A stretch of DNA of 64,000 nucleotides from an uncultured Gemmatimonadales bacterium (GCA_963825065.1 CAWGRU010000020.1:17830-81829); one strand, 5' to 3'; positions 1 to 17,202 are shown, numbered from the stretch's first letter. A program made the numbers and translations. The notes: generated by a model not told the origin, from the letters alone.

Positions 1-9
1 CTCGGCGCC

Positions 10-1479
10 GTGCTGTGGGTGATCGGATCGGTCCTGTTTCGGGTCGCTCTCTGGATGCAGAGCGGGGGGGATCGGGCCGTCCTGGTGCCGACGGCGTCGG
101 ACGGGATCGTCGTCGGCAGCGTGGCCCTGTCGCTCAGCTTCTTCCTCTATGCCCGCCGGCCCGAGCGGGATCCACGGTTCGTTCTCGATCTGGGCCTGGT
201 CTACATGGTGCTTACCGCGCTGGGGCTCGGCCTGACCTGGCACTGGTCGCCGGTCGTCGGCGGCTGGTCGGTGGCGCCCACGATCACCTGGGTCGGTCCG
301 GTGATCCTGATGTTCGCCGCGATCGTGCCGAGCACGCCGGGGAAGATGATGGTGGCGGGACTCATCGCGGCCTCGATGAATCCCATCGGGATGCTGATCG
401 CGCGGGCGCGGGGAGTGTGGGAGTTCGGCCCCACGAGCAACGTGTTCCTGATGCACTATCCCGACTACCTGATGGTCGGGATCGCCGTGGTGATCTCCCG
501 CGTCGTGACCCGGCTGGGCGAGGAAGTCACCCGGGCGCGCGAACTGGGGAGCTATCAGCTCGGCGAGCTGCTGGGTCGCGGCGGCATGGGGGAGGTGTAC
601 CGGGCTACCCATCGGATGCTGGCCCGCCCGGCAGCGATCAAGTTGATCCGGCCCGAGATGCTGGGTGTGGCCGATGCCGGCGCCGCGCAACTGGCCGTCG
701 CCCGATTCCGGCGGGAGGCGCTGGCCGCGGCGAGCCTGCGGTCGCCCCATACGGTCGAGTTGTACGACTTCGGAGTCACGGAGGACCAGACGCTCTACTT
801 CGTGATGGAGCTGCTCGACGGGATGGACCTCGAGTCGCTGGTGCGGCGGACCGGTGCCGTTCCCGCGGCGCGCGTGATCCACATCCTGGGTCAGGTCTGC
901 GAATCGCTGGAGGAAGCACACGCGGCGGGCCTGGTCCACCGGGACATCAAGCCCGCCAACATCCACATCGGGCGACTGGGGCTGCGTCACGACTTCGTGA
1001 AGGTGCTGGACTTCGGGCTGGTCAAGTCGCTGGCCGACGAGACCACCGAGACGTCACTCGCCACCGGGGCCGGGCTCACGCCCGGGACGCCAGCCTACAT
1101 GGCCCCCGAGCTGGCGCTGGGCGAGGCGTTCGATGGGCGCGCGGATCTCTACGCACTGGGCTGTGTCGGCTACTTTCTGCTGACCGGCCGGGTCGTCTTC
1201 GAGGCGGCCAACGGCATGCAGATGATCGCGAAGCACGTCCGGGAGATTCCAGTCCCTCCATCGCAACGGACGGAAATGCCGGTACCAGCGCCACTGGAGC
1301 GGCTGCTGCTCTCCTGTCTCGCCAAGAAGCCGGAGGAGCGTCCCGCGAACGCCGCGGCGCTGGCCCGTTCGCTGGCCGCTGTCGGGGCGGAGTCCTGGAA
1401 CGAGGAGCAGGCGCGTCGCTGGTGGGATGTCCACGCCCCGCGACCGTCGAAACCATCACAAGGGGTAGCGGTGGCGTGA
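10..1479 (+). CDS. Membrane-bound Hanks-type Ser/Thr protein kinase (multi-TM N-terminus; probably 5'-truncated by window edge)
   Basis: GRGGMGEVY, AAIK, HRDIKPAN, DFG, GTPAYMAPE motifs after several hydrophobic helices; frame is open to the window start. Confidence 0.93.
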   Translation: MLWVIGSVLFRVALWMQSGGDRAVLVPTASDGIVVGSVALSLSFFLYARRPERDPRFVLDLGLVYMVLTALGLGLTWHWSPVVGGWSVAPTITWVGPVILMFAAIVPSTPGKMMVAGLIAASMNPIGMLIARARGVWEFGPTSNVFLMHYPDYLMVGIAVVISRVVTRLGEEVTRARELGSYQLGELLGRGGMGEVYRATHRMLARPAAIKLIRPEMLGVADAGAAQLAVARFRREALAAASLRSPHTVELYDFGVTEDQTLYFVMELLDGMDLESLVRRTGAVPAARVIHILGQVCESLEEAHAAGLVHRDIKPANIHIGRLGLRHDFVKVLDFGLVKSLADETTETSLATGAGLTPGTPAYMAPELALGEAFDGRADLYALGCVGYFLLTGRVVFEAANGMQMIAKHVREIPVPPSQRTEMPVPAPLERLLLSCLAKKPEERPANAAALARSLAAVGAESWNEEQARRWWDVHAPRPSKPSQGVAVA

Positions 1480-1535
1480 TGAACGTACAGATTGATCGTT
1501 GTTCCTAGGAATCCTCCGCCCGGCCGGGACAACCG

Positions 1536-3212
1536 ATGGCCACTCTACGTCGACTGCACCGCAGGACTGCCACGCCGGTTCAGGCTTCCCCGATTTCCGG
1601 GAGTTCTGGATCGGGGCAGAGCCTGCCCAGCGACGTGATCCACCAGACCTGCAAGCGGGTCTGGGTGCTCGGGCTCATCGCGACCGGCCTCTGGACACTT
1701 GCGCTGGTCGCCAACTCCATCGTCGCCCGGTTGATGGGCCACCCGGCCGTCATCGAGGAGCTGTGGCCGTACCCGGGCGTCCCCATCTCCGGCGTCGGAC
1801 TCGTCATTTCACTGGTGCTGGTCGCGGTGGCGGGTCCACTCAGCAGGCGGCCGCAGCTGCTGCTGGACTTGAGCGCCGGCTTCCTGGTCCTGACCTGCCT
1901 GCTGGTAGCGCTCCTGTCCCAGTGGGTGCCACCGCCGATCACGCCGCGGGTGTCCTGGCTCTGTGTGCTCATCCTGGCCTATCCGGCAATCGTCCCAACC
2001 TCGCCGGCACGGACCCTCTGGGTGTCGCTGCTCGCCGCGTCGACCGAGCCGGTTGCGCTGTGGGTCACCCACCTGCGGGGCGCGGTCTCCGACTACAGCG
2101 CGATGTACTACGTCTGGGCTTTCGTGCCCACCTATCTCAGTGCCATCATCGCCGTCGTGCCGTCCAGGATCATCCGCCAGCTTGGCCGCCAGGTGAGTCG
2201 GGCGCGGGAACTCGGGAGCTACCGGCTCGAGGAGGTGCTCGGGAAGGGAGGAATGGGTGAAGTCTACCGGGCCTCGCACCAGATGCTGGCGCGTCCCGCG
2301 GCGGTGAAGCTCATTCGGCCCGAGGTGCTCGACAGCAGTTCGCCCGATCACGCGCGGGTGATTCTCGAACGGTTCCGGCGGGAGGCGGAGGCCGCCGCCT
2401 CGCTCCGGTCGCCGCACACCATCAGTCTGTACGACTTCGGGGCGGCGCAGGACGGGACGTTCTTCCTGGTCATGGAGCTGCTCGACGGGCTCGATCTGCA
2501 ATCGCTCGTGGAGCGGTTCGGCCCGCAACCCGCCGACCGGACCGCCTACCTGCTGATCCAGGTGTGCCACTCGCTGGCGGAGGCCCACTGTCGAGGGCTC
2601 ATTCACCGCGACATCAAGCCTTCCAACATCTTCACCTGCCGCATGGGGCTCGCGGTCGACTTCGTGAAAGTGCTCGACTTCGGCCTGGTGAAGGCGCTTG
2701 GCGACCTGGAGCGCGATCAGCCGCTCCTCACCGCGCCGGATGCCACCGCCGGCACCCCTGCCTACATCGCGCCCGAGATGGTCCGCGGGGATTCGACGAT
2801 CGATCATCGGGTCGATATCTACGCCCTGGGATGCGTGGCGTACTGGCTGCTCACCGGCCGGCTGGTGTTCGAAGCACCCAACGCGCTCCAGATGCTGTTC
2901 CAGCACGCCCAGAAGACGCCGATTCCGCCATCGCAGCGGATCGAGCTGGAGATTCCTCCCGCCATGGATGCCCTCGTGATGGCCTGTCTGGCCAAGCGCC
3001 CCGAGGATCGCCCCGCTAGCGCAGCCGAGCTGGCTCGCCGGCTTCGCGCGATCGCGGACAACGACGGCTGGACGGAGGAACGCGCCCTGCGCTGGTGGGA
3101 GCGGCACCGGCCCGAATCGGTTCGCGCGACTCCGACCACCTGCGAACTCACGCTCACCAAGGCGATGAGCTCGGACATGCCTCTCGTTGAATCCGAAGCG
3201 GCGGCGCCGTGA
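1536..3212 (+). CDS. Membrane-bound Hanks-type Ser/Thr protein kinase, paralog of upstream gene
   Basis: GKGGMGEVY, AAVK, HRDIKPSN, DFG, GTPAYIAPE; about 6 N-terminal TM helices; shares RARELGSY linker with upstream kinase. Confidence 0.95.
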   Translation: MATLRRLHRRTATPVQASPISGSSGSGQSLPSDVIHQTCKRVWVLGLIATGLWTLALVANSIVARLMGHPAVIEELWPYPGVPISGVGLVISLVLVAVAGPLSRRPQLLLDLSAGFLVLTCLLVALLSQWVPPPITPRVSWLCVLILAYPAIVPTSPARTLWVSLLAASTEPVALWVTHLRGAVSDYSAMYYVWAFVPTYLSAIIAVVPSRIIRQLGRQVSRARELGSYRLEEVLGKGGMGEVYRASHQMLARPAAVKLIRPEVLDSSSPDHARVILERFRREAEAAASLRSPHTISLYDFGAAQDGTFFLVMELLDGLDLQSLVERFGPQPADRTAYLLIQVCHSLAEAHCRGLIHRDIKPSNIFTCRMGLAVDFVKVLDFGLVKALGDLERDQPLLTAPDATAGTPAYIAPEMVRGDSTIDHRVDIYALGCVAYWLLTGRLVFEAPNALQMLFQHAQKTPIPPSQRIELEIPPAMDALVMACLAKRPEDRPASAAELARRLRAIADNDGWTEERALRWWERHRPESVRATPTTCELTLTKAMSSDMPLVESEAAAP

Positions 3213-4636
3213 GTCGTGGCGTGACGGGACGGTTCACCATCCTCTCGACCCTGGCCCTCGCCGGGCTCGGTGCCGGAACGGCGACGGCTCAGATCGGGCG
3301 TCCCCCGGCCGATCTCAACGCCCTCAGCCGCTCGCTCGAGGCGGTCGTCCAGACAGTCGGGCCGACGGTGGTGCAGATCCGGGTCACCGCCTACGGTCCG
3401 GTGGAGGGGGGTGCTACCGGCGCCGCCGCCCTGCTCGGTACCCAGCGGAGCACCGGTTCCGGGGTCATTCTGAGCGCCGATGGCTACATCGTAACCAACG
3501 CGCACGTGGTGCAGGGCGGCCGGCGCTTCGTCGCAGTGCTGCCCCGGCCCGCGGCAGCGGATGCGCCGGGCCGCTCGGCGCTTGCGCCGGTCTCGCAGGA
3601 GGTCCCGGCCAAGCTGGTCGGCATCGACGGGGAGACCGATCTCGCCGTGCTGAAAGTCGCGCTGACCGGGCTCCCCTTCGCCACGATCGGGGACTCCGAT
3701 TCGCTACGGGCCGGCCAGGTGGTGCTCGCTTTCGGCAGTCCGTTCGGCCTGGCCAGCAGCGTGACCATGGGTGTGATCAGCGCCCTGGGCCGACAACTGA
3801 GGGAAGAAGACCGGATGGTCTACATCCAGACCGACACGCCCATCAATCCCGGCAACAGCGGGGGGCCGCTGGTCAGCGCCGACGGCGCGGTGGTCGGCAT
3901 CAACACCCTGATCTTCAGTCAGTCGGGGGGCAGCGAGGGAATCGGGTTCGCGGCGCCCGGCAACATCGTGCGCTTCGTCTATGACCAGATCAGGGCCCAG
4001 GGGCGGGTACGGCGGGGGACGATCGGGGTCTTCGCCCAGACGATCACGCCCGCGCTGGCGGAGGGACTGCACCTGCCCCGGGGGTGGGGCGTGGTCCTCG
4101 GTGACGTCTATCCCGGCGGCCCCGCCGCCAAGTCGGGGCTGCGGGTCGGCGATGTGGTCGCGGCGGTCGACGGCAAGGCGCTCGAGAACGGACGGCAGTT
4201 CGACGTGACGCTCTACCGCCGGCCGATCGGCTCGAGCGTCAGCCTCGAGGTGCTGCGCGGACCGCAGCGACTCATCGTCCGGGTCCCGGTCCTCGAACGG
4301 CAGGACGACTCCAACCGGCTCCAGGACATGGTGACGCCGGAGCAGAATCTGCTGCCGCGGCTCGGCATCCTCGGGCTGGAGCTCACTCCCGAGCTCGCCG
4401 CGGCGATTCCTGGTGTGCGCGACCCGCATGGCGTGGTGGTGGCGGGGGTCGCCGCGGATGCGTCGCTCCCCGCGGGACTCGCGCCGGGGGACATCATCTA
4501 CGGCGCGGACGGAACCCGGACGCCGACGCTGGCCGAGCTGCGGAATGCGGTCGGCCAGGTCGCCGCTGGCGGGACGACGGTGCTCCAGGTGGGACGCGGG
4601 GGACAACTGCGGTTCGTCACGGTGGTGCTCGAATGA
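3209..4636 (+). CDS. HtrA/DegP-family periplasmic serine protease with two PDZ domains
   Basis: Signal peptide; TGSGVI, VTNAHVV, TDLAVLKV, INPGNSGGPL; PDZ-like C-terminus; GTGA overlap with upstream kinase. Confidence 0.95.
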   Translation: MSRGVTGRFTILSTLALAGLGAGTATAQIGRPPADLNALSRSLEAVVQTVGPTVVQIRVTAYGPVEGGATGAAALLGTQRSTGSGVILSADGYIVTNAHVVQGGRRFVAVLPRPAAADAPGRSALAPVSQEVPAKLVGIDGETDLAVLKVALTGLPFATIGDSDSLRAGQVVLAFGSPFGLASSVTMGVISALGRQLREEDRMVYIQTDTPINPGNSGGPLVSADGAVVGINTLIFSQSGGSEGIGFAAPGNIVRFVYDQIRAQGRVRRGTIGVFAQTITPALAEGLHLPRGWGVVLGDVYPGGPAAKSGLRVGDVVAAVDGKALENGRQFDVTLYRRPIGSSVSLEVLRGPQRLIVRVPVLERQDDSNRLQDMVTPEQNLLPRLGILGLELTPELAAAIPGVRDPHGVVVAGVAADASLPAGLAPGDIIYGADGTRTPTLAELRNAVGQVAAGGTTVLQVGRGGQLRFVTVVLE

Positions 4637-6039
4637 CCGCGGCAGCAGTGGAGCGGCGAGGTCCGGTGGACCGGGCCCTCAGCATCTTCACCGAGGTGCA
4701 CGGCGGTGAGGGCACGACGGCCCTGCTGCTCGCCGGCAACGTGTTTCTGCTGCTCACCGCCTACTACATCATTAAGCCGGTGCGTGAGGCGCTGATTCTC
4801 TCGGGCGAGGGCGCCGAGGTGAAGTCGTATGTGTCTGCGGGACAGGCGCTGCTGCTGCTTGCCCTGGTGCCGGCGTACGGCGCCCTCGCCGACCGGCTGC
4901 CCCGCCGGCGGCTGCTGAACGCGGTGACCGGATTCTTCGTGGCCTGCCTGGTGGGATTCTACCTCGCCACCCGCGCCGGGCTGCCGGTCGGCGTGATCTA
5001 CTTTCTCTGGGTCGGCATCTTCAACCTGATGATTGTTGCGCAGTTCTGGTCCTTCGCCAACGACCTGTACACCAAGGACCAGGGGGAGCGCCTCTTTCCC
5101 ATCGTGGCGTTCGGCGCCTCGCTCGGCGCCGTCATGGGCAGCGCGATCACGGGGCGGCTGCTTCCGCTGCTGGGCGTACCCCAGATGCTGCTCGTGGCCG
5201 CGGCGCTCCTCGCGGTCGCGACCTTTCTCGGCAATCTGGTGGATGCGCGCGAGCGGGCCCGCTGCGAGGCGGGCATCCCGTCGCGTTTCACGACCGAGAA
5301 GCTCCCCGCGGCGACCGGAGAATACCTGATTCAAGGCGGGACGGAGAATGAGAAGCTGACTGTCTCCTTCTCCGGAACCGCCACCAGGCACGGCACCTTT
5401 CGACTGGTGTACCAGGAGCGGTACCTGCTGCTCATCGCGTTGCTCATCCTGGTACTCAACTGGGTCAACACGACGGGCGAGTACGTCCTCGGCCGCACCG
5501 TCGCCCGTGCGGCGGAGGCGGCGGTCGCTGCCGGCACTGCCGACGGCCTGTCGGTGGCGGAGTACATCGGGCGCTTCTACTCCGAGTTCTTCTTCGGGGT
5601 AAATCTCGCGGGGCTGGTACTGCAGCTCTTCGTCGTCTCCCGATTGCTCCGGTATTTCGGGGTGCGCACCGCGGTGCTGGTGCTGCCGCTGATCGCCCTG
5701 GCCGGCTACGCGGCGCTCGCCTTCCTGCCGATTCTCGCGGTGGTGCGGTGGGTGAAGACCGCCGAGAACGCCACTGACTACTCGCTGCAGAACACCGTCC
5801 GCAACGTCCTCTTCCTGCCCACCAGCCGGGAACAGAAGTACAAGGCCAAGCAGGCGATCGACTCGTTCTTCGTCCGGGCGGGTGACGTGCTGTCGGCGCT
5901 GCTCATCTACGTCGGGACCACACGCTTCGGCCTGGAGGCGACTGGATTCGCCCGGGTGAACCTCCTGCTGGCGCTCGTCTGGGTCATCCTCGCGGTGCTG
6001 GTGGGGCGCGGGTACGTGCGGAAAGCGGCCGGCCTGTGA
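4633..6039 (+). CDS. NTT/TLC (Npt1/Npt2-like) nucleotide transporter
   Basis: About 12 TM; YYIIKPVREAL, FWSFANDLY..RLFPI, TDYSLQNT..LFLP..KYKAKQAID match ATP/ADP translocase family motifs. Confidence 0.85.
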   Translation: MTAAAVERRGPVDRALSIFTEVHGGEGTTALLLAGNVFLLLTAYYIIKPVREALILSGEGAEVKSYVSAGQALLLLALVPAYGALADRLPRRRLLNAVTGFFVACLVGFYLATRAGLPVGVIYFLWVGIFNLMIVAQFWSFANDLYTKDQGERLFPIVAFGASLGAVMGSAITGRLLPLLGVPQMLLVAAALLAVATFLGNLVDARERARCEAGIPSRFTTEKLPAATGEYLIQGGTENEKLTVSFSGTATRHGTFRLVYQERYLLLIALLILVLNWVNTTGEYVLGRTVARAAEAAVAAGTADGLSVAEYIGRFYSEFFFGVNLAGLVLQLFVVSRLLRYFGVRTAVLVLPLIALAGYAALAFLPILAVVRWVKTAENATDYSLQNTVRNVLFLPTSREQKYKAKQAIDSFFVRAGDVLSALLIYVGTTRFGLEATGFARVNLLLALVWVILAVLVGRGYVRKAAGL

Positions 6040-8579
6040 GGGCCGCGCTCGCGCTGCTCCTGCTGGCGGGACCGCTCGCCGCCCAGGCCGTGCCCGCCGG
6101 ACGCGAACCCGCTCAGACCAGCGTGGTGCGGGCGCCAGGCGCGCACTACGGCGCGAGCGGGCTGCACCGCTTCGTGCTGGGCACCGACTATCGGGCGCTG
6201 TGGACCACGCCGGTCAGCGTCGAGGTGCTCGACCTGGGATCGGCGGAAGGCGGGCTCGTGCCGCTGGGACGCACCGGCGGACAGCAGTCGAAGACGCTCA
6301 AGCTGGGCAATCCCAGCGGCCAGCAGTTCTTCTTCCGCTCGATCGACAAGGACCCCACCAAGGCGCTGCCCGAAGAGCTTCGCGGTACCGTCGCGGGCTG
6401 GGTGGTCCAGGACCAGATCAGCTCGGCCAATCCGCTGGCACCGCTGGTGGTCTCGCGGCTGCTCGCGGCGACGAGCATCCTCCACAACGCGCCCCGGCTC
6501 TACGTCCTGCCTGACGATGCCCGGCTGGGCGAGTTCCGCGCCGACTTCGGCGGACTGATGGGGTTCCTCGAGGAACGGGTCGGGGGCAGCGGGCTCGCGG
6601 CCCATTGGCAGGGCGCCGTCGAGATCATCGACAGCGACACCCTGTTCGCGCGGGTGGACCGCGATGCCGACGACCGGGTGGACGCCCGGGCCTTTCTGCT
6701 GGCGCGGCTCTTCGACGTTTACATCGGTGACTGGGACCGCCACCGCGACCAGTGGCGCTGGGCCCGGATGGACGATGCGCTTCCCCGCCGCTGGCTGCCC
6801 ATCCCGATCGATCGCGACCAGGCATTCGTCCGGTTCGACGGGGTCGCGCTGTCGATCGCGCGGCAGACCCTGCCGAAGCTGGTGAAGTTCGGGGCCGGCT
6901 TTTCCGACATGGCGGGCCAGACCTGGAATGGCCGGGATCTCGACCGCCGATTCCTCTCGGACCTCGAGCGCCCGGTCTGGGATTCGGTCGGTCGCTCGCT
7001 GCAGGCGGCACTCAGCGACAGCGTCATCGCCGACGCCGTCCGCGCGCTGCCGGCGGAGCACTTTGCCCTCGCCGGGCCCCGACTGGAGGCGCGGCTCAAG
7101 CATCGGCGGGATGCCCTGATGGAAGCGGTCGACCGCTACTACCACCTGCTGTCCGCGCAGGTGGACATCCATGCGACCGACGAGGCCGACGTCGCCTCGA
7201 TTGCGCGCCGCGACGATGGCGGCGTCACGGTGGGGCTGTCCCGGACCTCGGGTGCTGGAGCGGGCCGATACTTCGAACGCCGGTTCGAACCCGGACAGAC
7301 CCGCGAGGTGCGGCTCTTCCTCGGTCGGGGTGATGACACGGCGGTAGTGCGCGGGGTGGGAGGCGGGATCACGGTGAGAATCCTGGGCGACTCGGGCGCC
7401 GATCGGCTCACCGACTCCTCGAGCGGCGGGCCGAACCGCTTCTACGACGCCGACGGCCGTGATGCGCGGACAACGGGGCGCTCCACGCCGATCGATCGGC
7501 AACGCTACGTCCCGCCTCCGAGTCCTGATCCGCATGCGATCCCCCCGCGAGACTGGGGACACCGCTGGCAGCCACTCACCTGGGCGAGCTACGGACCGGA
7601 CGTGGGGCTCTTCGTCGGCGGGGGACGCACCCTGACAACCTACGGGTTCCGGAAATACCCGTTCGCCACCCGGCACCGCTTCCGCGCCGGCATCGCCACC
7701 GGGCCGTGGACCTACCGGGTGGATTACCTCGGTGAGTTCCACCGGGAGAACTCCCGCGCGAGCCTCGTCCTGTTTGCCCGCGCATCCGGCGTCGAGGTGC
7801 TCCGCTTTCACGGCTTCGGCAACGAGACCTCGGCTGCCGGGAGTGATGCCTTCTATCGCGTGACCCAGGATCAGTTCTCCCTCGAGCTGGCGCTGCTCCT
7901 GCCGGTGGGAGGGCGGCTGACGCTGCTGGCGGGACCGACCCTGAAATACGCCTCCACCGATCGCCGGGCCGACCGTTTCCTCGCAACCGTCAATCCGTAC
8001 GGCGCGGGCAACTTCGGCGAGGTCGGGGCGCGCGCCGCGTTGCGGCTGGACACCCGCAACCGGCGGAACGCCGCGAGCCGGGGTGTGATGCTGGAGCTGG
8101 GCGGCTCGATTCACCCCGCGTGGTGGGACGTTCAGGAGACGTTCGGTGAAGCCCACGCGGAGGCGGCGGTGTACCTCAGCCCGCCTGCGCCGCTGGATCC
8201 TACCCTCGCGCTCCGCGCCGGGGGAAAGAAACTGTGGGGAGCCTATCCCTACTTCGACGCCGCCTTCATCGGCGGCCCGGCGACGATTCGCCTCGGCCGG
8301 GAGAATCGGTACGCCGGTGATGCCTCGGCCTACGGCTCCGCGGAGCTTCGCCTGGCGCTGGTGCGCGCCCGGCTGGTGCTCCCCGCCGAGCTCGGGATCT
8401 TCGGCCTGGCGGATGCCGGCCGGGTGTACTTCGCCGGAGAATCCTCGAGCAGGTGGCACACCGCCTTCGGCGGAGGGATCTGGGTCGCGTTCCTCAATCG
8501 CTCCAACACCTTCTCTGCCGCCGTCGCCGCGAGCGACGAGCGCACCCGCGTCTACCTGCAGGCCGGTTTTGCCTTCTGA
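6036..8579 (+). CDS. Outer-membrane protein: N-terminal atypical kinase-like domain plus C-terminal Omp85 (BamA/TamA)-type beta-barrel
   Basis: Signal peptide MRAALALLLLAGPLAAQ; GGQQSK, FDVYIGDWDRHRDQW, PIPIDRDQAF; amphipathic beta-strands, RLDTRN, C-terminal AGFAF. Confidence 0.75.
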   Translation: MRAALALLLLAGPLAAQAVPAGREPAQTSVVRAPGAHYGASGLHRFVLGTDYRALWTTPVSVEVLDLGSAEGGLVPLGRTGGQQSKTLKLGNPSGQQFFFRSIDKDPTKALPEELRGTVAGWVVQDQISSANPLAPLVVSRLLAATSILHNAPRLYVLPDDARLGEFRADFGGLMGFLEERVGGSGLAAHWQGAVEIIDSDTLFARVDRDADDRVDARAFLLARLFDVYIGDWDRHRDQWRWARMDDALPRRWLPIPIDRDQAFVRFDGVALSIARQTLPKLVKFGAGFSDMAGQTWNGRDLDRRFLSDLERPVWDSVGRSLQAALSDSVIADAVRALPAEHFALAGPRLEARLKHRRDALMEAVDRYYHLLSAQVDIHATDEADVASIARRDDGGVTVGLSRTSGAGAGRYFERRFEPGQTREVRLFLGRGDDTAVVRGVGGGITVRILGDSGADRLTDSSSGGPNRFYDADGRDARTTGRSTPIDRQRYVPPPSPDPHAIPPRDWGHRWQPLTWASYGPDVGLFVGGGRTLTTYGFRKYPFATRHRFRAGIATGPWTYRVDYLGEFHRENSRASLVLFARASGVEVLRFHGFGNETSAAGSDAFYRVTQDQFSLELALLLPVGGRLTLLAGPTLKYASTDRRADRFLATVNPYGAGNFGEVGARAALRLDTRNRRNAASRGVMLELGGSIHPAWWDVQETFGEAHAEAAVYLSPPAPLDPTLALRAGGKKLWGAYPYFDAAFIGGPATIRLGRENRYAGDASAYGSAELRLALVRARLVLPAELGIFGLADAGRVYFAGESSSRWHTAFGGGIWVAFLNRSNTFSAAVAASDERTRVYLQAGFAF

Positions 8580-8583
8580 GGAC

Positions 8584-10790
8584 GTGCCGGGCCGCAACTC
8601 CGATCGCACCGCCGCCATCGCCGCGACCGTCGCGAGCACCGCGATGGTCGCGTTTCAGCTTGCGGGCAAGGCGACCCGGGACGCGCTCTACCTCTCCACC
8701 TTCGGGATAGGCTCCCTCCCCCGGATGGTCATCGTGGCGGCGCTGCTCTCGGCGCTGATGACCATCGCCCTCTCGAGAGTGCTGGCCCGGCTTGGCCCGG
8801 CACGCCTGGTCCCCTGGCTCTTCGCGGCGAGCGCCGTGCTGCTCCTCGGTGAGTGGCTGCTGGCCGGGGTCGCGCGGCCGGTCGCCGCGGTGCTCTTCTA
8901 TCTCCACTTCAGCGCCCTCGGGGCTCTGGTCGTCTCCGGCTTCTGGGCGATGGTCACCGAGCGCTTCGATCCGCACACCGCGCGGGGCACGATCGGACGC
9001 ATCACCGTCGGCGCCTCGATCGGCGGGCTCGTGGGTGGACTGCTCCCCGAGCGGGTCGGGGCGGTGTTCTCGGTGACCGCGATGCTCCCCCTCCTTGCCA
9101 CGCTGCACCTGGTCTCGGCGGTGCTGGTGCTCGCGGTGCGTCCAGCGCCCCGCACCCGTGGGGAGGTCGAGCCCGGCGATCCTGACAAACCGCTCGCTGC
9201 GACGGGGATCTTCCGGACATCCTCGTATCTCCGGCAGCTTGCGTTGCTGGTCGCCCTCACCGCCCTGGCCGAGGGGCTGCTCGATTTCGTGTTCAAGGCG
9301 CGAGCGACCGCGACGGCTCCCAGCGGGGAACAGCTGCTGCGGCTCTTCGCGATGTTTTACACCGCGACGGCGCTCCTCACCATCCTGGTGCAGGCTGCCG
9401 CCTTGCGCCCCGCCCTGGCGCGGCTGGGCGTCGCGCGGAGCGCCGCGCTGCTGCCCGCAGGCGTGTCGTTAGGCGCGGTGGGCGGACTGCTCCTGCCCGG
9501 CCTGCTTCCTCTCCTCCTCGCGCGCGGCATCGAGATCGTGCTGCGCAACTCGCTGTTCCGGGAGCGTACGAGCTGCTCTTCACGCCGCTACCGCCGCCGG
9601 AGAAGCGAGCGACGAAGCTGCTGGTGGACGTCGGGGCCGCCCGCATGGGCGATGTCGCGGGCGGTGCCTTGATCCAGGTGACGCTGCTGCTGGCCGCTGC
9701 CTGGGCTGCCCCGCTGCTGCTGGCCGCCACGATCGGCGTTGCCGGCGTGGCCCTGGCGGTGGCTCGCCGGCTGCATCGCGGGTATCAGGGCGCCCTCGCG
9801 CGGAGCCTGACTCAGCGCGCCGACCAGATCTCCGGGGGGGACCTCGGAAGATCGGCCGCGTTCCTTCAAACTGTCGGGGGGTTCGACCTGAGCCAGTTCC
9901 GCCCCCTGACGACCGGCCGGCCCGCCCCGCCCGCCACCCGCCCGCCGGTGACGGAGGCCGTGCGCCCTCGGAGTGCGGAGGAGCGGAGGCTCAGCGCCTT
10001 GACGGCTGCCGATCCGGGTATCGTGCGGGAGGCGTTGCGGAGCGGTGTTCTGACGTCGCGATTGATGGAACCGGCGATCGGGCTTCTCGCCTGGGATGAC
10101 GCCGCGCCTGACGCCATCGAGGGCTTGCGTGCGGTGGCGCAGTCGGAGACCGAACGGCTGGTGCGACACCTGCTGGATCCGGAGGAGGACTTTGCCATAC
10201 GCCGGCGACTGGTGCTGGTTCTCGCCGGATGTCCCACCGCGGAGGCGTTCGAGGGACTGTTTCGTGCCCTGGAGGATCGCCGCTTCGAGGTGCGCTACCG
10301 CGCCGGTCGCGCTCTCAACCATCTGCGCGGAGCGAATTCGTCCCTCACCGTGGACCGTGAGCGGGTCCTCGCGGTGGTGCTGAACGAGGTGGCCGTGGGC
10401 CGGGGTGTCTGGGAAAGCCGGCAGCTCATCGACGCGGCGGACGACGAGTGGGCGACCACCGAGGCGGATCTCCTCCGCACCCGGGCGAGCCGCAGCCTGG
10501 AGCACGTCTTCAACCTGCTGGCCCTGATCCTCCCGCGCGAGCCGCTGCGACTGGCCTACCAGGGGTTGCACACCGGTGATCAGAATCTGCGGGGGACGGC
10601 GCTCGAGTATCTGGAGACGGTGCTGCCGAAGCGGGTGCGGCAGCAGCTCTGGCGCTTCCTGGAGCCCGGCGAGCCGCCCGCAGCAGGTTCAGGGCGCACC
10701 CCGGACCAGGCGCTGGAGCAGTTGCTGCAGTCGCGAGAGTCGATCGTGCTGGCGCTGCGCGCGCTGCACCAGAGGACGGAAGAGCCTTGA
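8584..10790 (+). CDS. NTT/TLC-like transporter fused to HEAT-like helical repeats; one frameshift near 9560
   Basis: GTG at 8584; AGKATRDALYL, FWAMVTERFD; adding one G in cgggagcg gives RNSLFRGAYELLFTPLPPPEKRATKLLVD and joins ORF 9624..10790 (ALEDRRFEVRYRAGRAL, NLRGTALEYLE). Confidence 0.78.
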
Positions 10791-10818: not shown

Positions 10819-11658
10819 CTATCGCAGCAGCTCCTCCAGCCGCACCGCCGTGTCGGTCCGGTCGTCCCGGTATTTCACGACCACCGGGGCGTAGAGCGAG
10901 ATCCCCATCGCCTGTCCCGGACCGCTCGAGACCGGACGTGAGCCGGGAACGACCACCGCTCCCGCAGGGATCTCCAGCGGCCGGTCGCCCTCTCTGCGGT
11001 AGGTGGTGTTGCGGACCAGGTCGTAGACGATGGTCCCGCCGGTGAGGATCGTCCCCGGCGCCAGCACTGCCTGCTCGCGGACGATCGTTCCCTCGTAGAC
11101 GCCGCAGTTGCCGCCGACCAGGACCCCGTCTTCGATGATGACCGGGAGCGCGCCGATCGGCTCCAGCACGCCGCCGATCTGGGCCGCGGCCGAGAGGTGC
11201 ACCCGCTTGCCGATCTGCGCACAGGAACCGACCAGCGCGTGACTGTCGACCATGGTGCCTTCGTCGACGTACGCCCCGGCGTTGATGAAGGCAGGAGGCA
11301 TGATCACGACGCCGGTGGCGACGAAGGCGCCGTCGCGGATGGAACTGCCCCCGGGGACCAGCCGCACCCCATCCAGTGGCGACAACCGCTTCAGCGGCCA
11401 GGTGTGCTTGTCGAAGAAGGGGAACGGTCCGCCCTCCGCGGCCGGCTGTACCGTCCCCAGCCTGAACCCGAGCAGGATGCCCGCCTTGACCCAGGCGTTG
11501 GCGCGCCACCGGCCCGCCGCATCCCGCTCGGCGGCGCGGACCGTCCCGGCATTCAGTCCCGCCTTGAGCCGTTCGAACGCGACCAGCGCCTCCGCCTCCT
11601 CTCCCGGCGCCACCCGCTGCGCGTAGCGCTCGATCGCGACGCGCAGGTCAGCACTCAT
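10819..11658 (-). CDS. dapD: Tetrahydrodipicolinate N-succinyltransferase
   Basis: MSADLR start; WVKAGILLGF, FFDK, GAYVDEGTMVDSHALVGSCAQIGKRVHLSAAAQIGGVLEP. Confidence 0.95.
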   Translation of the reverse strand: MSADLRVAIERYAQRVAPGEEAEALVAFERLKAGLNAGTVRAAERDAAGRWRANAWVKAGILLGFRLGTVQPAAEGGPFPFFDKHTWPLKRLSPLDGVRLVPGGSSIRDGAFVATGVVIMPPAFINAGAYVDEGTMVDSHALVGSCAQIGKRVHLSAAAQIGGVLEPIGALPVIIEDGVLVGGNCGVYEGTIVREQAVLAPGTILTGGTIVYDLVRNTTYRREGDRPLEIPAGAVVVPGSRPVSSGPGQAMGISLYAPVVVKYRDDRTDTAVRLEELLR

Positions 11659-12561
11659 CGGGCGACCGCCGCCGCCGGTTCGACACCGGCCGCCTGCAGC
11701 GCCGCGAACAACGGTGCCCGCCGCTGCTCCGAGAGCGGGACCAGCGGCAGCCGTAATACGTCGTGGATCCGCCCCATCGCGGCCAGCGCCGCCTTGACCG
11801 GCGCCGGATTGGTCTCGAGGAAGTTGGCCTCGAGCAGCGGGAGGATGGTGTAGAGGATTTCGCGCGCCTCGGCGAACTGGCCGTCGGAGGCAGTGACGCA
11901 CCATCGCGCTCATGATGCCGGGGATCTCGTTGGAGGCGACCGAGATCAGGCCGTCCCCGCCGGCGGCGATGACTGCCAGGGTCATCCAGTCCTCGCCGGA
12001 GAGCACCGCGAAGCCGTCGGGCCGGCCCAGCAGTAGATGCTGGACCTGAGCCAGGTCGCCGGAGGATTCCTTGATCCCGATGATGTTCGGGTGGCTGGCC
12101 AGCCGGAGCACCGTCTCCGGCTTCATGTTGACCGAGGTGCGGCCGGGGACGTTGTAGAGGCAGACCGGGACGCTCGCCGCATCGGCCACGGCGGTGAAGT
12201 GCCGGTAGAGGCCTTCGGGCGTGGGCCTGTTGTAGTAGGGCGTCGCGGAGAGGAGCCAGGTGACGCCGAGTGCGCTCATCCGGCGCGCCTCTTCCACCGC
12301 CTGGCGGGTGTCGTTGTGGGTGGCACCCGCCATGACGGGGACCCGCCCGGAGGCGGTCTCCACCACGGTGCGCACCACCCGTTCCCGCTCCTCCGTCGAG
12401 AGCGTCTGGGCCTCCCCGGTGCTGCCGCACGGCACCAGGAAGTTGATCCCGTCCTCGATCTGCCACTCCACGAGCTTTCGGAGCGCCCCGACGTCCACCG
12501 TTCCATCCGGCGTGAACGGCGTCACGATCGCCGTTCCGCATCCTCTCAGTGCGGTCGTCAT
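11655..12561 (-). CDS. dapA: 4-hydroxy-tetrahydrodipicolinate synthase (one frameshift near 11885)
   Basis: TAIVTPF, GSTGE, PYYNRP, LYNVPGRT, GIKESSG; C-terminus ANFLETNPAPVKAAL..LRLPLV lies in a shifted frame ending at 11655. Confidence 0.92.
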
Positions 12562-13256
12562 GGTGCCTCCCCGAAGAGCATCTGGTCGAATGTGAACACG
12601 CCTGTGCGACCCCGAATCCATTCTGCGGCCAGCAGCGCACCGGCGGCGAAGGCCTGCCGACCGCGCGCGGTGTGGCTCAGCCGGATGGTCTCATGGGTCG
12701 CGTCGTACACCACCTCGTGCGTCCCGGGCGCGAACCCGCCCCGGACACTGGAAATCGGAAAGTCGCGCTGGCCGTCGCCCTCCCGCAGGGTGGCGCGCAA
12801 CCGCAGCGCCGTGCCGGAGGGGGCGTCGAGCTTGGCCGCGTGGTGGGTCTCCACGACGAAGGCCTCGAACTCCGCCCGCCCGGCGAAGCGGGCCGCGAGA
12901 TCGCGCGCGGCGCGCAGATAGAGCTGGACGCCGATGGAAAAGTTGGGGCTGTACAGGAGGGCGCTGCGGTGGGCGGTCACGGTGCGGGCGACGTCGGGAA
13001 GCCGGTCGAGCCAGCCGGTGGTCCCGGTGATGGTTCGCATGCCCAGGGCCGCGAGGCGCAGCAGGTGGTCGGCCGCGCGGTCGGGCCGGGTGAATTCGAT
13101 CGCCACATCCGCGCCGTCGAGGCGCGCCGCGGTGATCGCCTCGCCGGCGCGATTCTCCGCGCCGCTGATCACCGTGTGGATGGCGTGACCGCGCTCCACC
13201 GCCAGTTGCGCGATGGTCCGGTTCATCCGGCCGTCTCCTACCAGGGCGATGCGCAT
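12558..13256 (-). CDS. dapB: 4-hydroxy-tetrahydrodipicolinate reductase
   Basis: MRIALVGDGRM, IEFTRP, GTTGW, PNFSIG, ETHHAAKLDAPSGTA, FAAGA. Confidence 0.95.
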   Translation of the reverse strand: MRIALVGDGRMNRTIAQLAVERGHAIHTVISGAENRAGEAITAARLDGADVAIEFTRPDRAADHLLRLAALGMRTITGTTGWLDRLPDVARTVTAHRSALLYSPNFSIGVQLYLRAARDLAARFAGRAEFEAFVVETHHAAKLDAPSGTALRLRATLREGDGQRDFPISSVRGGFAPGTHEVVYDATHETIRLSHTARGRQAFAAGALLAAEWIRGRTGVFTFDQMLFGEAP

Positions 13257-15885: not shown

Positions 15886-17202
15886 CTACGCCGCCTCCGC
15901 AGCGCGGGCCTCCCGCTGGCCCTGCTCCACATCCACGAAGTGGAGCAGGGCGCCGCCCACCACGAAGAAGGCCACGATCGCCAGGATCGCCACTCGGCTC
16001 GAGCCGGTCACGCCGATCACCCTGGCAAAGATCCACGGGCCGAAGATCCCCGCGAACTTCTCCACGACCGCGAAGAAGCCGAAGAACTCCGCCGAGCGCG
16101 CCTGGGGATCATGCTGGCGAACAGCGACCGGGAGAGCGCCTGGGTGCCGCCCTGCACCACGCCCACCAGCAGCGCCAGTATCAGGAAGTGGGTCGCGTTG
16201 GTCATGAAGTAGCCGAGCACGCTGATGCCCGCGTAGACGACGAGGCCGACGAAGATCGGCGCGCTTGGCGCCGATGCGGCTGGCGAAGGAGCCGAACAGG
16301 AAGGCGAACGGGATCCCGACGAACTGCACGATCATGATCGACGCGATCAGCGCACCGGGCCGATGCCGATCTCGGTGCCGTAGATCGTCGCCATCCGGAT
16401 GATGGTGCCGATGCCGTCGTTGTAGATCAGGAAGGCGATGAGCATCAGGACGGCCTGCCGGAACTCGCCCAGCCGCCTGAAGGTGGACCGCCGAGCTCGC
16501 GGAAGGCGGCGCCCACGTCGATGCGGCCGTCGCCCGTGGCAGCCGGCTCGCGGACGTCGCGGAACAGCGGAATCGAGAAGACCATCCACCAGATCGCGAC
16601 CGACAGGAACGCCAGCCGCGTCGGCAGGGTCGCCTGCGCAGGCGTCAGGTCGGGGCCCGACGGCAGTCCGAACCAGGCCGGCTTCTGGATCCAGGCGAGG
16701 TTCAGCGCGAGCAGCAGCCCGCCGCCGACGTACCCCAGGGCGTAGCCCGCGGTCGAGACCCGGTCCATCTCCTCCGGCGCCGCGATGTGGGGCAAGAAGC
16801 GAGTCGTAGACAGACGAAGCTCGCGTTCACCGCGATGTTCGCGACGACGAACAGACCGGCGGCGAGCACCCAGTCGCCCCGCTCGATGAAGAACATCAGG
16901 CCGACCGCGACCACCCCGATGATCAGGGAGAGTCCCAGCAGCCGCTTCTTCACCCCGGCCCGGTCGGCGATGGCCCCGAGGATCGGCGAGAGGACCGCGA
17001 TGATGACGAGCCCGATCGTCGTGGCGTCGGCGAGCCGCTTGGTGGCGAGCGCCGGGGCGAGGTCCGCCGCGGCGACCTTGGCGAAGTAGATCGGGAAGAC
17101 GGCGGTGACGATGGTGGTGACCATCGCGGAGTTCGCCCAGTCGTACATCGCCCAGGCACGCAGCTCCCGGCGGTGCAGGCCCAGTCGCTCGAGGATCGTC
17201 AT
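15886..17202 (-). CDS. MFS transporter, UMF1/Atg22-like; several frameshifts
   Basis: [47 protein letters not shown] found across shifting frames; ATGA overlap with oxidase gene. Confidence 0.8.

What the first reader, a model, noticed from the sequence alone, without database searches (positions are those of the whole stretch)
10..10790. Candidate envelope-phosphorylation system: two NTT nucleotide transporters flanking a secreted kinase-Omp85 fusion, with HtrA and two membrane Ser/Thr kinases
Seen: six co-oriented genes, the last five coupled by 4-nt overlaps or a 4-nt gap (kinase2/HtrA, HtrA/NTT, NTT/OMP, OMP/NTT-HEAT). Established: NTT/TLC carriers exchange ATP/ADP in Rickettsia, Chlamydia and plastids; their role in free-living bacteria is poorly defined, and the periplasm is generally regarded as ATP-poor. 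This genome has purD, guaB and gpmI, so energy parasitism is an unlikely purpose. Inference: the transporters export ATP and recover ADP to fuel the exported kinase domain, while HtrA and the Hanks kinases regulate or mature the system.
Basis: partly seen in the sequence, partly recalled or inferred. Interest (0 to 1): 0.87.

Follow-up and report, generated by a model that had tools for sequence, protein, structure and literature searches.

The report
Outer-membrane kinase flanked by nucleotide carriers
A soil bacterium carries a conserved gene cluster in which two relatives of ATP/ADP carriers flank an undescribed outer-membrane protein with a kinase-like domain, which hints that some bacteria may supply phosphorylation chemistry to the space between their two membranes.

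Summary
The gene layout is real: membrane Hanks kinases, HtrA, a divergent NTT/TLC carrier, an 847-aa exported protein, then an NTT-HEAT carrier, joined by 4-nt overlaps or a 4-nt gap. Two caveats apply. NTT-HEAT is frameshifted near 9560-9566 in this assembly, and STK1 is cut by the window edge.

The central protein models confidently (pLDDT 90.8). It has a kinase-like domain closest to CotH, PI4KII-alpha and CtkA/HipA (VIA Z 15.0-13.2), a beta-sandwich, and a 16-strand Omp85 barrel. Its putative catalytic motifs are invariant in 52 homologues. It has no Pfam family, yet 1,788 cluster representatives match at E<=1e-30.

NTT linkage is conserved in the window's clade and recurs in rearranged order elsewhere. 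It holds in only 23 of 100 family loci. Another 35 carry PPK1 or DUF4956 instead, and none carry both.

Transport substrate, transport direction, kinase activity and target remain untested. Best-explanation confidence is 0.4 and interest is 0.72.

The parts
1..1479 (+). STK1: Hanks-type Ser/Thr kinase with an N-terminal multi-pass membrane region. Its 5' end is probably cut by the window edge.
   Evidence: Pkinase E 1.3e-43 at residues 182-451. Motifs HRDIKPAN, DFG and APE are visible in the translation. At least 4 hydrophobic segments precede the kinase domain. The frame is open at position 1, and the alignment to STK2 starts upstream of the window.
1536..3212 (+). STK2: a second membrane Hanks-type Ser/Thr kinase.
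   Evidence: Pkinase E 3.4e-42 at residues 229-495. At least 4 hydrophobic segments lie in residues 42-208. Orthologues sit beside the NTT genes and/or P5 in 14 of 23 NTT-type loci.
3209..4636 (+). HtrA/DegP-type periplasmic serine protease (trypsin-like domain plus two PDZ domains).
   Evidence: Trypsin_2 E 1.4e-32 and PDZ_2 with 2 stretches. TIGR02037 scores 336.7 bits, below its cut-off of 416.2. The N-terminus looks like a signal peptide (judged by eye). Present in only 6 of 100 P5 loci.
4633..6039 (+). NTT1: a divergent NTT/TLC-type MFS carrier.
   Evidence: TLC 42.5 bits against a cut-off of 21, but only C-terminal profile positions 406-484 align well. Its only PDB sequence relatives are the NTT ADP/ATP carriers 9j3n and 9j3j. 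At least 10 hydrophobic segments. JGI names its homologues 'AAA family ATP:ADP antiporter' and NCBI names them 'MFS transporter'.
6036..8579 (+). P5: an 847-aa exported protein with a kinase-like domain, a beta-sandwich and an Omp85 barrel.
   Evidence: No Pfam family. AF2 model pLDDT 90.8 and pTM 0.88. 1,788 cluster representatives match at E<=1e-30.
6036..6089 (+). P5 signal peptide (residues 1-18, ending AQA).
   Evidence: Hydrophobic segment at residues 1-19. The cleavage site is judged by eye from the translation.
6117..7154 (+). P5 atypical kinase-like domain (residues about 28-373).
   Evidence: Domain model pLDDT 93.9. VIA-align: CotH 5jda Z 15.0, PI4KII-alpha 4pla Z 14.6, CtkA 3akj Z 13.2, HipA Z 11.5. 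The top 13 Foldseek hits at E<=1e-3 are all PI4KII-alpha, CtkA or HipA.
6726..6755 (+). Putative catalytic loop GDWDRHRDQW (residues 231-240).
   Evidence: D232, D234 and R235 are invariant, and H236, Q239 and W240 are at least 90% conserved in 52 homologues. The motif follows helix 217-230 and precedes a beta-hairpin, the position of a kinase catalytic loop. That assignment is an inference.
6810..6827 (+). Putative metal-binding motif DRDQAF (residues 259-264), in the position of a kinase DFG motif.
   Evidence: D261 is invariant, and D259, R260, A263 and F264 are at least 90% conserved. It lies directly after strand 251-257.
7158..7478 (+). P5 all-beta linker domain (residues 375-481). It is not a POTRA domain.
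   Evidence: About ten short strands in the AF2 model. No POTRA match in the Pfam or NCBIfam scans.
7560..8570 (+). P5 Omp85-type beta-barrel with 16 strands (residues 509-845).
   Evidence: 16 long strands in the model. Foldseek hits to BamA, TamA and Sam50 barrels at E 4.5e-11 and weaker. NF047779 Omp85_fam E 3.5e-19. The family profile hits BamA and a POTRA-domain protein in the PDB.
8584..9563 (+). NTT2-HEAT, N-terminal carrier part (frame 1).
   Evidence: At least 7 hydrophobic segments. MFS_1 21.1 bits, below its cut-off. The intact orthologue L022:11839-14061 scores TLC 23.4 bits against a cut-off of 21 and hits NTT structure 9j3j at E 8.8e-6.
9560..9566 (+). Frame break inside NTT2-HEAT, apparently a 1-nt deletion.
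   Evidence: The reading frames differ on either side. Orthologues are in frame with one codon at this place. No read cover was available to test it. dapA is also frameshifted in this window.
9564..10790 (+). NTT2-HEAT, last transmembrane helices plus the C-terminal HEAT-repeat domain (frame 3).
   Evidence: 2 hydrophobic segments, then a soluble domain. HEAT_2 E 2.8e-5 at 24.8 bits, below its cut-off of 27.7. PDB hits to alphaRep HEAT-like proteins.

Best explanation
This is a conserved Gemmatimonadales envelope operon built around an undescribed class of outer-membrane protein.

**What P5 is.** P5 is exported by a signal peptide and anchored in the outer membrane by a 16-strand Omp85 barrel. 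Its N-terminal part is an atypical protein-kinase-like domain closest to CotH, PI4KII-alpha and CtkA/HipA. That domain most probably stays on the periplasmic side, as shown for the patatin domain of the Omp85 protein PlpD. This placement is an inference.

**Proposed mechanism.** The two flanking NTT/TLC-type carriers sit in the inner membrane and, running as exchangers, deliver cytoplasmic nucleoside triphosphate to the periplasm and take back the diphosphate. The tethered kinase domain can then phosphorylate an envelope target, either an inner-leaflet outer-membrane lipid or an envelope protein. The substrate is unknown.

**Accessory genes.** The membrane Hanks kinases, and the cytoplasmic HEAT domain of the second carrier, would gate this supply. 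HtrA is a clade-specific accessory.

**Related branches.** In other branches of the P5 family the same place is taken by polyphosphate genes (PPK1, DUF4956, once PPK2) and by exported phosphoesterases. The common theme is the supply and removal of phosphoryl groups at the envelope.

**Shown versus inferred.** Gene layout, folds, invariant motifs and gene linkage are shown. Topology, transported substrate and direction, kinase activity and target are inferred.
For: **Layout and translational coupling.**

**Kinase fold.**
- CotH Z 15.0 over 255 aligned residues.
- PI4KII-alpha Z 14.6.
- CtkA Z 13.2.
- All 13 Foldseek hits at E<=1e-3 are kinases of the PI4KII, CtkA or HipA type.

**Conserved residues.** R101, K105, D232, D234, R235 and D261 are invariant, and G81, G82, H236 and Q239 are nearly invariant, in 52 homologues of 35-58% identity.

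**Barrel.** BamA and TamA hits at E about 1e-10.

**Carriers.**
- TLC scores above the Pfam cut-off.
- NTT structures are their only PDB sequence relatives.

**Linkage.**
- NTT1-P5-NTT2HEAT is seen in 12 of the 20 relatives' loci laid out (14 of 20 carry at least one NTT gene by the HMM labels).
- 14 of 17 NTT1 orthologue places in the genus abut P5.
- 17 of 17 genus genomes with NTT1 have P5.
- NTT-linked P5 genes sit in three places of the family tree with different gene orders: the main clade, L039+L063, and L111+L118. This needs 5 label changes against a shuffled mean of 20.

**Donor-supply theme.**
- Of 100 loci, 23 have NTT, 35 have PPK1 or DUF4956, and 0 have both.
- L111 reads P5-PPK2-NTT1-STK-PAP2.

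**Exported phosphoesterase partners.**
- A signal-peptide or lipoprotein Metallophos gene lies directly upstream of P5 in 25 of 100 loci.
- It is fused to P5 in 3 more.

**Published parallels.**
- CotH genes lie with a polyphosphate polymerase and DUF4956 in Gram-positive pel loci (bioRxiv 10.1101/768473, passages read).
- The enzyme domain of PlpD is periplasmic (PMC11116518, passages read).
Against: - No transport or kinase assay exists for any of these proteins.
- The TLC matches are weak and partial, 23-61 bits covering about 80-100 of 491 profile positions. A six-frame family search of the genome gave only 16 bits. Nucleotide specificity is therefore unproven.
- 77 of 100 P5 loci lack an NTT neighbour.
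- In G016 and G008 the STK-STK-NTT1-NTT2HEAT genes lie without P5, which sits elsewhere.
- The NTT-HEAT gene is broken in this assembly.
- ATP released into the periplasm could leak through porins, and the kinase is tethered to the other membrane (established knowledge, not tested here).
- PPK1 is cytoplasmic, so the polyphosphate context does not by itself put a donor in the periplasm.
- Q239 stands where PI3/PI4-kinases have Asn (recalled motif), so the chemistry may differ.
- The related genomes compared are kin, so the counts overstate independence.
Confidence: 0.4

Rival explanations
1. Scavenging and import. P5 and its exported phosphoesterase partners process external or periplasmic phosphorylated compounds such as nucleotides, polyphosphate or phytate-like esters. 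The NTT-like carriers then import the products. The module would serve phosphate or nucleotide acquisition rather than envelope phosphorylation.
For: - All characterised NTTs import nucleotides or cofactors (PMC5381601, passages read).
- P5 neighbours include Metallophos, phytase-like/SdiA-regulated propellers, PAP2, His_Phos_1 and HD proteins.
- Many of these carry signal peptides or lipoboxes.
Against: - A kinase fold with invariant catalytic-type residues is not needed for hydrolysis or uptake.
- No phosphate-starvation genes of the Pho/Pst type were among the conserved neighbours found by the clustering.
- The genome is free-living in size, 4.35 Mb, and has its own PPK1.
Confidence: 0.2
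2. Signalling-centred module with a donor other than ATP. The Hanks kinases and NTT-HEAT carriers form a cytoplasmic-membrane signalling or transport unit of their own. P5 is an outer-membrane lipid-homeostasis enzyme or pseudokinase that uses a non-nucleotide donor (polyphosphate or a lipid pyrophosphate) or none. Its adjacency to the NTT genes would reflect co-regulation only.
For: - STK-STK-NTT1-NTT2HEAT occurs without P5 in L122 and L123, while P5 keeps STK and HtrA in L023 and L024.
- STK, cyclase and histidine-kinase genes also accompany polyphosphate-type loci.
- PlpD shows that an Omp85-tethered enzyme can act on outer-membrane lipids without ATP.
- PAP2 lipid-phosphatase-type genes lie in 9 of 100 loci.
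Against: - The Gly-rich loop, Lys and both Asp motifs of a nucleotide-dependent kinase are conserved.
- NTT and PPK1/DUF4956 are mutually exclusive next to P5, 0 of 100 loci with both. That pattern fits interchangeable suppliers better than mere co-regulation.
- All 17 genus genomes with NTT1 keep P5.
Confidence: 0.2
3. Inherited synteny without functional coupling. The gene order is simply retained from a common ancestor of one Gemmatimonadales genus.
For: Most NTT-linked loci come from one genus or from close MAGs. Proteins are 55-79% identical and the gene order is the same.
Against: - The genes have 4-nt overlaps.
- Flanking genes differ between genomes, for example chromate transporters in L022 and dapA/dapD here.
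- Linkage survives rearrangement: L039/L063 read NTT2HEAT-P5-STK-NTT1.
- It recurs in MAGs labelled Acidobacteria (L111) and Granulosicoccus (L118).
Confidence: 0.1

Closest known systems
PlpD / patatin-Omp85 proteins ('type Vd')
   Same: An enzyme domain lies N-terminal to a 16-strand Omp85 barrel in one polypeptide. PlpD's enzyme domain was shown to stay in the periplasm and to affect membrane lipids (PMC11116518, passages read). P5 has the same barrel fold.
   Different: P5 carries a kinase-like domain rather than a patatin lipase. It has an all-beta linker and no detectable POTRA domain. Its topology has not been tested.
CotH atypical kinases (B. cereus CotH, 5jda/5jd9)
   Same: CotH is the best structural match to the P5 domain: Z 15.0, 255 residues aligned, rmsd 4.1. 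CotH genes in Gram-positive pel loci sit with a polyphosphate polymerase and DUF4956. P5 genes sit with PPK1 and DUF4956.
   Different: P5 has no Pfam CotH match and only 13% identity to CotH. Its catalytic loop reads DRHxxQ, closer to the PI3/PI4-kinase pattern (recalled). P5 is fused to an outer-membrane barrel.
PI4KII-alpha, HipA and H. pylori CtkA (PI3/4-kinase-like branch of the kinase superfamily)
   Same: These are the top Foldseek hits at E 1.4e-4 to 8.4e-4 and give VIA Z 14.6, 11.5 and 13.2. They share a DRH-type catalytic loop (recalled motif).
   Different: Sequence identity is only 9-16%. Gln stands in place of the loop Asn. Those proteins are cytoplasmic or secreted soluble proteins, not outer-membrane fusions.
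NTT/TLC nucleotide transporters and NTT-HEAT fusions (Major, Embley & Williams 2017)
   Same: The window's carriers score above the Pfam TLC cut-off, and NTT structures are their only solved relatives. NTT-HEAT fusions are known to be widespread, monophyletic, present in free-living bacteria and functionally uncharacterised (PMC5381601, passages read).
   Different: The matches cover only part of the profile. No transport data exist. Linkage to an outer-membrane kinase-like protein is not mentioned in the passages read.
HtrA/DegP and Hanks-type Ser/Thr kinases
   Same: Domain content is standard.
   Different: The kinases have their multi-pass membrane region N-terminal to the kinase domain. 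They occur in tandem, three copies in this genome.

Membership tests
NTT/TLC nucleotide transporters (Pfam PF03219) | Sequence match to the family model above the curated cut-off | tested here: met
   NTT1 scores 42.5 bits against a cut-off of 21. The NTT2-HEAT orthologue in L022 scores 23.4 bits. L111 scores 61.1 bits and L118 scores 28.6 bits. Coverage is partial, and NCBIfam TIGR00769 gives 35.4 bits against a cut-off of 387.
NTT/TLC nucleotide transporters (Pfam PF03219) | Polytopic MFS-like carrier with about 12 transmembrane helices | tested here: met
   A simple hydropathy scan finds at least 10 hydrophobic segments in NTT1 and 7+2 in NTT2. Weak MFS_1 matches support this.
NTT/TLC nucleotide transporters (Pfam PF03219) | Transport of ATP/ADP or other nucleotides; conserved substrate-binding residues | not tested
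The paper describing NTT structures 9j3j and 9j3n was not found in the library, so the binding residues could not be mapped.
NTT-HEAT fusion clade (Major et al. 2017) | NTT domain followed by a C-terminal HEAT-repeat domain in one protein | tested here: inconclusive
   Orthologues are single ORFs of about 730-740 aa with TLC and HEAT_2 hits. In the window the frame is broken at about 9560-9566. HEAT_2 scores 24.8-26.6 bits, just below the cut-off of 27.7. Placement inside the published clade was not tested by a tree.
Omp85 superfamily | C-terminal 16-stranded beta-barrel of the BamA/TamA type | tested here: met
   The AF2 model has 16 long strands in residues 509-845. Foldseek hits BamA, TamA and Sam50 at E 4.5e-11 and weaker. 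NF047779 E 3.5e-19, below the curated cut-off. The family profile hits BamA in the PDB.
Omp85 superfamily | [quoted passage not shown] | tested here: not met
   No POTRA family was found in the Pfam or NCBIfam scans. Residues 375-481 are all-beta in the model, unlike the beta-alpha-alpha-beta-beta POTRA pattern (the POTRA pattern is recalled). 'noNterm' Omp85 proteins without POTRA are known.
Protein-kinase-like superfamily, CotH / PI4KII / HipA-CtkA branch | Bilobal kinase fold | tested here: met
   The domain model has pLDDT 93.9. VIA Z is 15.0, 14.6 and 13.2 to CotH, PI4KII-alpha and CtkA, and 41 chains score Z>=8, almost all kinases. Foldseek agrees.
Protein-kinase-like superfamily, CotH / PI4KII / HipA-CtkA branch | Conserved ATP-binding Lys, catalytic-loop Asp and metal-binding Asp | tested here: inconclusive
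   K105 (and R101), D234 in DRH, and D261 in DRD are invariant in 52 sequences and lie at the expected secondary-structure positions.
CotH family (Pfam PF08757) | Sequence match to the family model | tested here: not met
   No Pfam family at E<=0.01. The Atlas feature search gave CotH and HipA clusters only at 0.79, below its trust level.
HtrA/DegP (Do family serine endopeptidases) | Trypsin-like protease domain plus PDZ domain(s); catalytic His/Asp/Ser | tested here: met
   Trypsin_2 E 1.4e-32 and PDZ_2 with 2 stretches. TIGR02037 E 2.1e-100, below the equivalog-style cut-off. The GNSGGP serine motif is visible in the translation.
Hanks-type Ser/Thr protein kinases | Pkinase domain with HRD and DFG motifs | tested here: met
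   Pkinase E 1.3e-43 and 3.4e-42. HRDIKP and DFG are seen in both translations.

The most novel reading that the evidence does not exclude
A widespread, so far unnamed class of outer-membrane-anchored periplasmic kinases (kinase-Omp85). It is found in MAGs labelled Gemmatimonadota, Ignavibacteria, Bacteroidota, Calditrichaceae, Rhodothermales and others. Dedicated inner-membrane systems would supply it with phosphoryl donors. In one branch these are NTT-type ATP/ADP exchangers running in export mode, which would be the first physiological role for NTTs in free-living bacteria. In others they are a polyphosphate synthase and channel set (PPK1 or VTC with DUF4956). This would be an energised phosphorylation system in a compartment held to lack ATP.
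Probability: 0.25. Interest if true: 0.9.

Novelty: new variant of a known kind. Interest (0 to 1): 0.72.

Why it matters
- The periplasm is generally described as lacking ATP (for example in PMC11116518), and no role is established for NTT carriers in free-living bacteria (PMC5381601).
- A conserved operon that puts two NTT-like carriers around an outer-membrane-tethered kinase fold makes both questions directly testable with a few proteins.
- P5 defines a large family with no Pfam model: 1,788 cluster representatives at E<=1e-30.
- It would be a second kind of enzyme-Omp85 fusion beside PlpD.
- Its steady association with polyphosphate and phosphoesterase genes points to unexplored phosphate chemistry at the bacterial envelope.

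Tried and rejected
- **Sequence searches for P5 in solved structures.** phmmer gave 0 hits. The family profile hit only BamA-type barrels. The kinase assignment therefore rests on predicted structure.
- **Whole-model Foldseek.** It returned only barrels, so the N-domain was folded alone.
- **Intrinsic terminators and promoters.** 5 terminator-like sites against 3.3 expected, and 0 promoters. Uninformative.
- **Checking the NTT2-HEAT frameshift in public data.** No run held half of the sampled words; the best share was 0.15, and no RNA holder was listed. The four runs laid gave no cover between 9523 and 9664. The frameshift remains unresolved.
- **Is the unknown 705-aa ORF next to VTC/DUF4956 on contig C12 a second P5-like kinase?** No. 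hhalign probability was 0.3.
- **Metallophos partner in the own genome.** Not found with the L045 query. The genome is 90% complete.
- **Literature searches.** The P5 architecture was searched. No listed paper describes a kinase-Omp85 protein. Heinz & Lithgow 2014 has 0 occurrences of 'kinase', 'phosphatase' or 'metallophos' in its main text. The paper on the NTT structures was not found. Supplements were not consulted.
- **Residue-level superposition on CotH or PI4KII-alpha.** Not possible, since model coordinates are not exposed.

Full report
**Observation**

The window has about 70% G+C. It is G000:C20:17830-81829 of a 4.35-Mb, 21-contig genome estimated 90% complete. Related contigs carry Gemmatimonadales labels.

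On the + strand lie the following genes:
- STK1, from position 1 or 10 to 1479
- STK2, 1536-3212
- HtrA, 3209-4636
- NTT1, 4633-6039
- P5, 6036-8579
- NTT2-HEAT, from 8584

The last five are joined by three 4-nt overlaps and one 4-nt gap.
- Pkinase at E 1.3e-43 and 3.4e-42.
- Trypsin_2 plus two PDZ stretches in HtrA.
- TLC at 42.5 bits (cut-off 21) for NTT1.
- An Omp85-family match at E 3.5e-19 at the C-terminus of P5.
- A sub-threshold HEAT_2 match.

Two corrections are needed.
- NTT2-HEAT is not one ORF here. Frame 1 ends at 9672, and the protein continues in frame 3 from about 9564. Orthologues are single ORFs of about 730-740 aa.
- STK1 is cut by the window edge, and a third membrane Ser/Thr kinase precedes it.

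dapA at about 11885 is also frameshifted, so assembly indels are the likely cause. Public contigs did not cover the NTT2 site.

**What P5 is**

P5 has no Pfam family and no sequence relative in the PDB. It nevertheless belongs to a very large family. 4,264 cluster representatives match at E<=1e-3 and 1,788 at E<=1e-30, and most of the best 150 are full-length at about 850 aa.

An AF2 model built from 52 homologues is confident, with pLDDT 90.8 and pTM 0.88. It shows:
- a signal-peptide-like N-terminus
- an alpha/beta domain (residues 28-373)
- an all-beta domain (375-481)
- a barrel of 16 long strands (509-845)

Foldseek matches the barrel to BamA, TamA and Sam50 at E down to 4.5e-11.

The N-domain folded alone has pLDDT 93.9. 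It matches atypical kinases:
- By Foldseek, all 13 hits at E<=1e-3 are PI4KII-alpha, CtkA or HipA, and CotH follows at 1.3e-3.
- By VIA-align against 48,161 chains, CotH gives Z 15.0, PI4KII-alpha 14.6 and 13.8, CtkA 13.2, ATM 11.8 and HipA 11.5. Below these are MavQ, Fam20 and Rio/Bud32 kinases.

R101, K105, D227, D232, D234, R235 and D261 are invariant in the 52 sequences. G81, G82, H236, Q239, D259 and R260 are nearly so.

In the model, GDWDRHRDQW follows a long helix and precedes a beta-hairpin, and DRDQAF follows that hairpin. This is the order catalytic loop, hairpin, metal-binding Asp of protein kinases (my inference; the PI3/4-kinase DRHxxN pattern is recalled).

No POTRA domain was detected.

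**Where the kinase domain sits**

This could not be tested. The closest architectural analogue is PlpD, a patatin domain followed by POTRA and an Omp85 barrel. Its enzyme domain was long assumed to be secreted. Protease, disulfide and lipidomic experiments showed that it stays in the periplasm (PMC11116518, passages read). By analogy, a periplasm-facing kinase domain tethered under the outer membrane is the most likely arrangement.

**The carriers**

NTT1 and the intact NTT2-HEAT orthologue score above the Pfam TLC cut-off, but over only part of the profile. Their only solved sequence relatives are the NTT ADP/ATP carriers 9j3n and 9j3j, at E 2.9e-4 and 8.8e-6.

JGI names NTT1 homologues 'AAA family ATP:ADP antiporter', and NCBI names them 'MFS transporter'. 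NTT-HEAT fusions are known, monophyletic, common in free-living bacteria and uncharacterised (PMC5381601, passages read).

Substrate and direction of transport remain open.

**Linkage**

Within the genus, P5 is found in 21 of 24 genomes and NTT1 in 17 of 24.
- All 17 genomes with NTT1 have P5.
- Of the 7 without NTT1, 4 have P5 (other locus types or fragmentary assemblies) and 3 have neither.
- 14 of 17 NTT1 orthologue places abut P5, one lies at a contig end, and two do not (G016:C5 and G008:C304).
- Those two carry STK-STK-NTT1-NTT2HEAT without P5, while in G016 P5 lies elsewhere with HtrA and an STK.

Flanking genes differ between genomes.

Outside the genus, 80 loci were fetched with the family motif. 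NTT neighbours appear in L042-46 and L081, which have a Metallophos gene inserted between NTT1 and P5. They also appear in:
- L063, in the order NTT2HEAT-P5-STK-NTT1
- L111, labelled Acidobacteria
- L118, labelled Granulosicoccus, with divergent orientation

On a FastTree of 102 P5 sequences the NTT-linked genes fall in three places. The label needs 5 changes against a shuffled mean of 20, and 0 of 500 shuffles were as low. MAG labels may be wrong, and kin are not independent.

**The wider family changes the picture**

I clustered ORFs of 100 P5 loci and labelled them with profiles and Pfam.

| Neighbour content | All 100 loci | 57 loci with >=3 kb on both sides |
|---|---|---|
| NTT | 23 | 11 |
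| PPK1 and/or DUF4956 | 35 | 22 |
| Both NTT and PPK1/DUF4956 | 0 | 0 |
| Other phosphoester genes only | 16 | 9 |
| None of these | 26 (about ten on short contigs) | 15 |

Recurrent partners are:
- PPK1, sometimes with an N-terminal CYTH domain.
- DUF4956.
- A signal-peptide or lipoprotein calcineurin-like phosphoesterase directly upstream of P5 in 25 loci and fused to its N-terminus in 3 more (L072, L116, L120; 28 of 100 loci in all).
- A lipoprotein SdiA-regulated/phytase-like propeller, in about 23-27 loci.
- HD-PycTM, in 12 loci.
- PAP2, in 9 loci.
- His_Phos_1, in 6 loci.
- Hanks kinases with TPR, cyclases and a hybrid histidine kinase.

L111 reads P5-PPK2-NTT1-STK-PAP2. This places a polyphosphate-dependent nucleotide kinase between the outer-membrane kinase and the carrier.

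The window's own genome has PPK1 and a VTC-DUF4956 pair elsewhere. In Gram-positive pel loci, CotH genes are likewise accompanied by a polyphosphate polymerase and DUF4956 (bioRxiv 10.1101/768473, passages read).

**Interpretation**

The consistent theme around P5 is making, moving and removing phosphoryl groups at the envelope. NTT carriers and polyphosphate genes act as mutually exclusive companions. It does not prove it.

The main counter-points are:
- the weak TLC membership
- the lack of any assay
- the 77 loci without NTT
- the split arrangement in two genomes
- the cytoplasmic location of PPK1
- the leakiness of the periplasm to ATP

The kinase target is unknown. An inner-leaflet outer-membrane lipid is favoured by the PI4KII-like fold, the PlpD analogy and the PAP2 neighbours. 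An envelope protein is favoured by the CotH and CtkA similarity and by HtrA. I cannot separate the two.

**Comparison and novelty**

Each part belongs to a known superfamily: Omp85, protein-kinase-like, NTT/TLC, HtrA and Hanks kinases. The kinase-Omp85 architecture and its linkage to NTT or polyphosphate genes were not found in the papers retrieved. They are also absent from the Omp85 survey of Heinz & Lithgow 2014 (0 occurrences of 'kinase'). Supplements could not be read.

I file it as a new variant of known kinds. The system-level reading, a fuelled periplasmic phosphorylation system, would be categorically new if shown.

**Verdict**

- Confidence in the donor-supply mechanism is 0.4.
- Interest is 0.72.

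Noticed in passing
window ~11880-11890, minus strand (ORF 10819-12621): dapA is frameshifted. The DapA reading ends at '...SAMVRHCL', and its C-terminus continues in another frame. The listed 600-aa ORF runs on into a DapD-like part. A break in a housekeeping gene suggests indel errors in the assembly.
   Followed up: partly
G000:C20 ~15953-17713 (L124:9954-11714), just upstream of the window: A third membrane Hanks-type Ser/Thr kinase lies in tandem with STK1 and STK2. Further upstream are an acyltransferase_3, a reprolysin-like metallopeptidase and a GGDEF protein.
   Followed up: partly
G000:C12 (L127:3-4743, minus strand): A VTC-domain protein and a DUF4956 protein sit side by side, followed by a TPR protein and an unknown ORF of at least 705 aa with no Pfam family. 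This resembles the CotH-VTC-DUF4956 sets of Gram-positives, but the unknown ORF is not P5-like.
   Followed up: partly
L072:5881-9654, L116:5726-9466, L120:219-3824: Natural fusions of a calcineurin-like phosphoesterase to the N-terminus of the kinase-Omp85 protein, 1,201-1,257 aa, in MAGs labelled Bacteroidetes, Rhodothermales and Adhaeribacter.
   Followed up: partly
L111:1233-8848: The gene order is P5, PPK2, NTT1-like carrier, membrane Ser/Thr kinase, PAP2, in a MAG labelled Acidobacteria.
   Followed up: partly
L058, L072, L087, L099, L100, L109, L112, L113: Tandem paralogues of the kinase-Omp85 gene occur in one locus, often separated by the propeller and Metallophos genes.
   Followed up: no
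ESM Atlas clusters: Stand-alone proteins of about 360-430 aa resemble the P5 kinase-like domain (feature scores 0.94-0.96). All are 'hypothetical protein' with no common Pfam family, mostly from Bacteroidota and Gemmatimonadota.
   Followed up: no
G026, G028, G032, G034, G036, G038, G040: Distant NTT-like matches at 23-34% identity lie in ORFs of about 650-1,126 aa in a sister family, including genomes where P5 was not found. These may be other NTT-HEAT(-cNBD) types.
   Followed up: no
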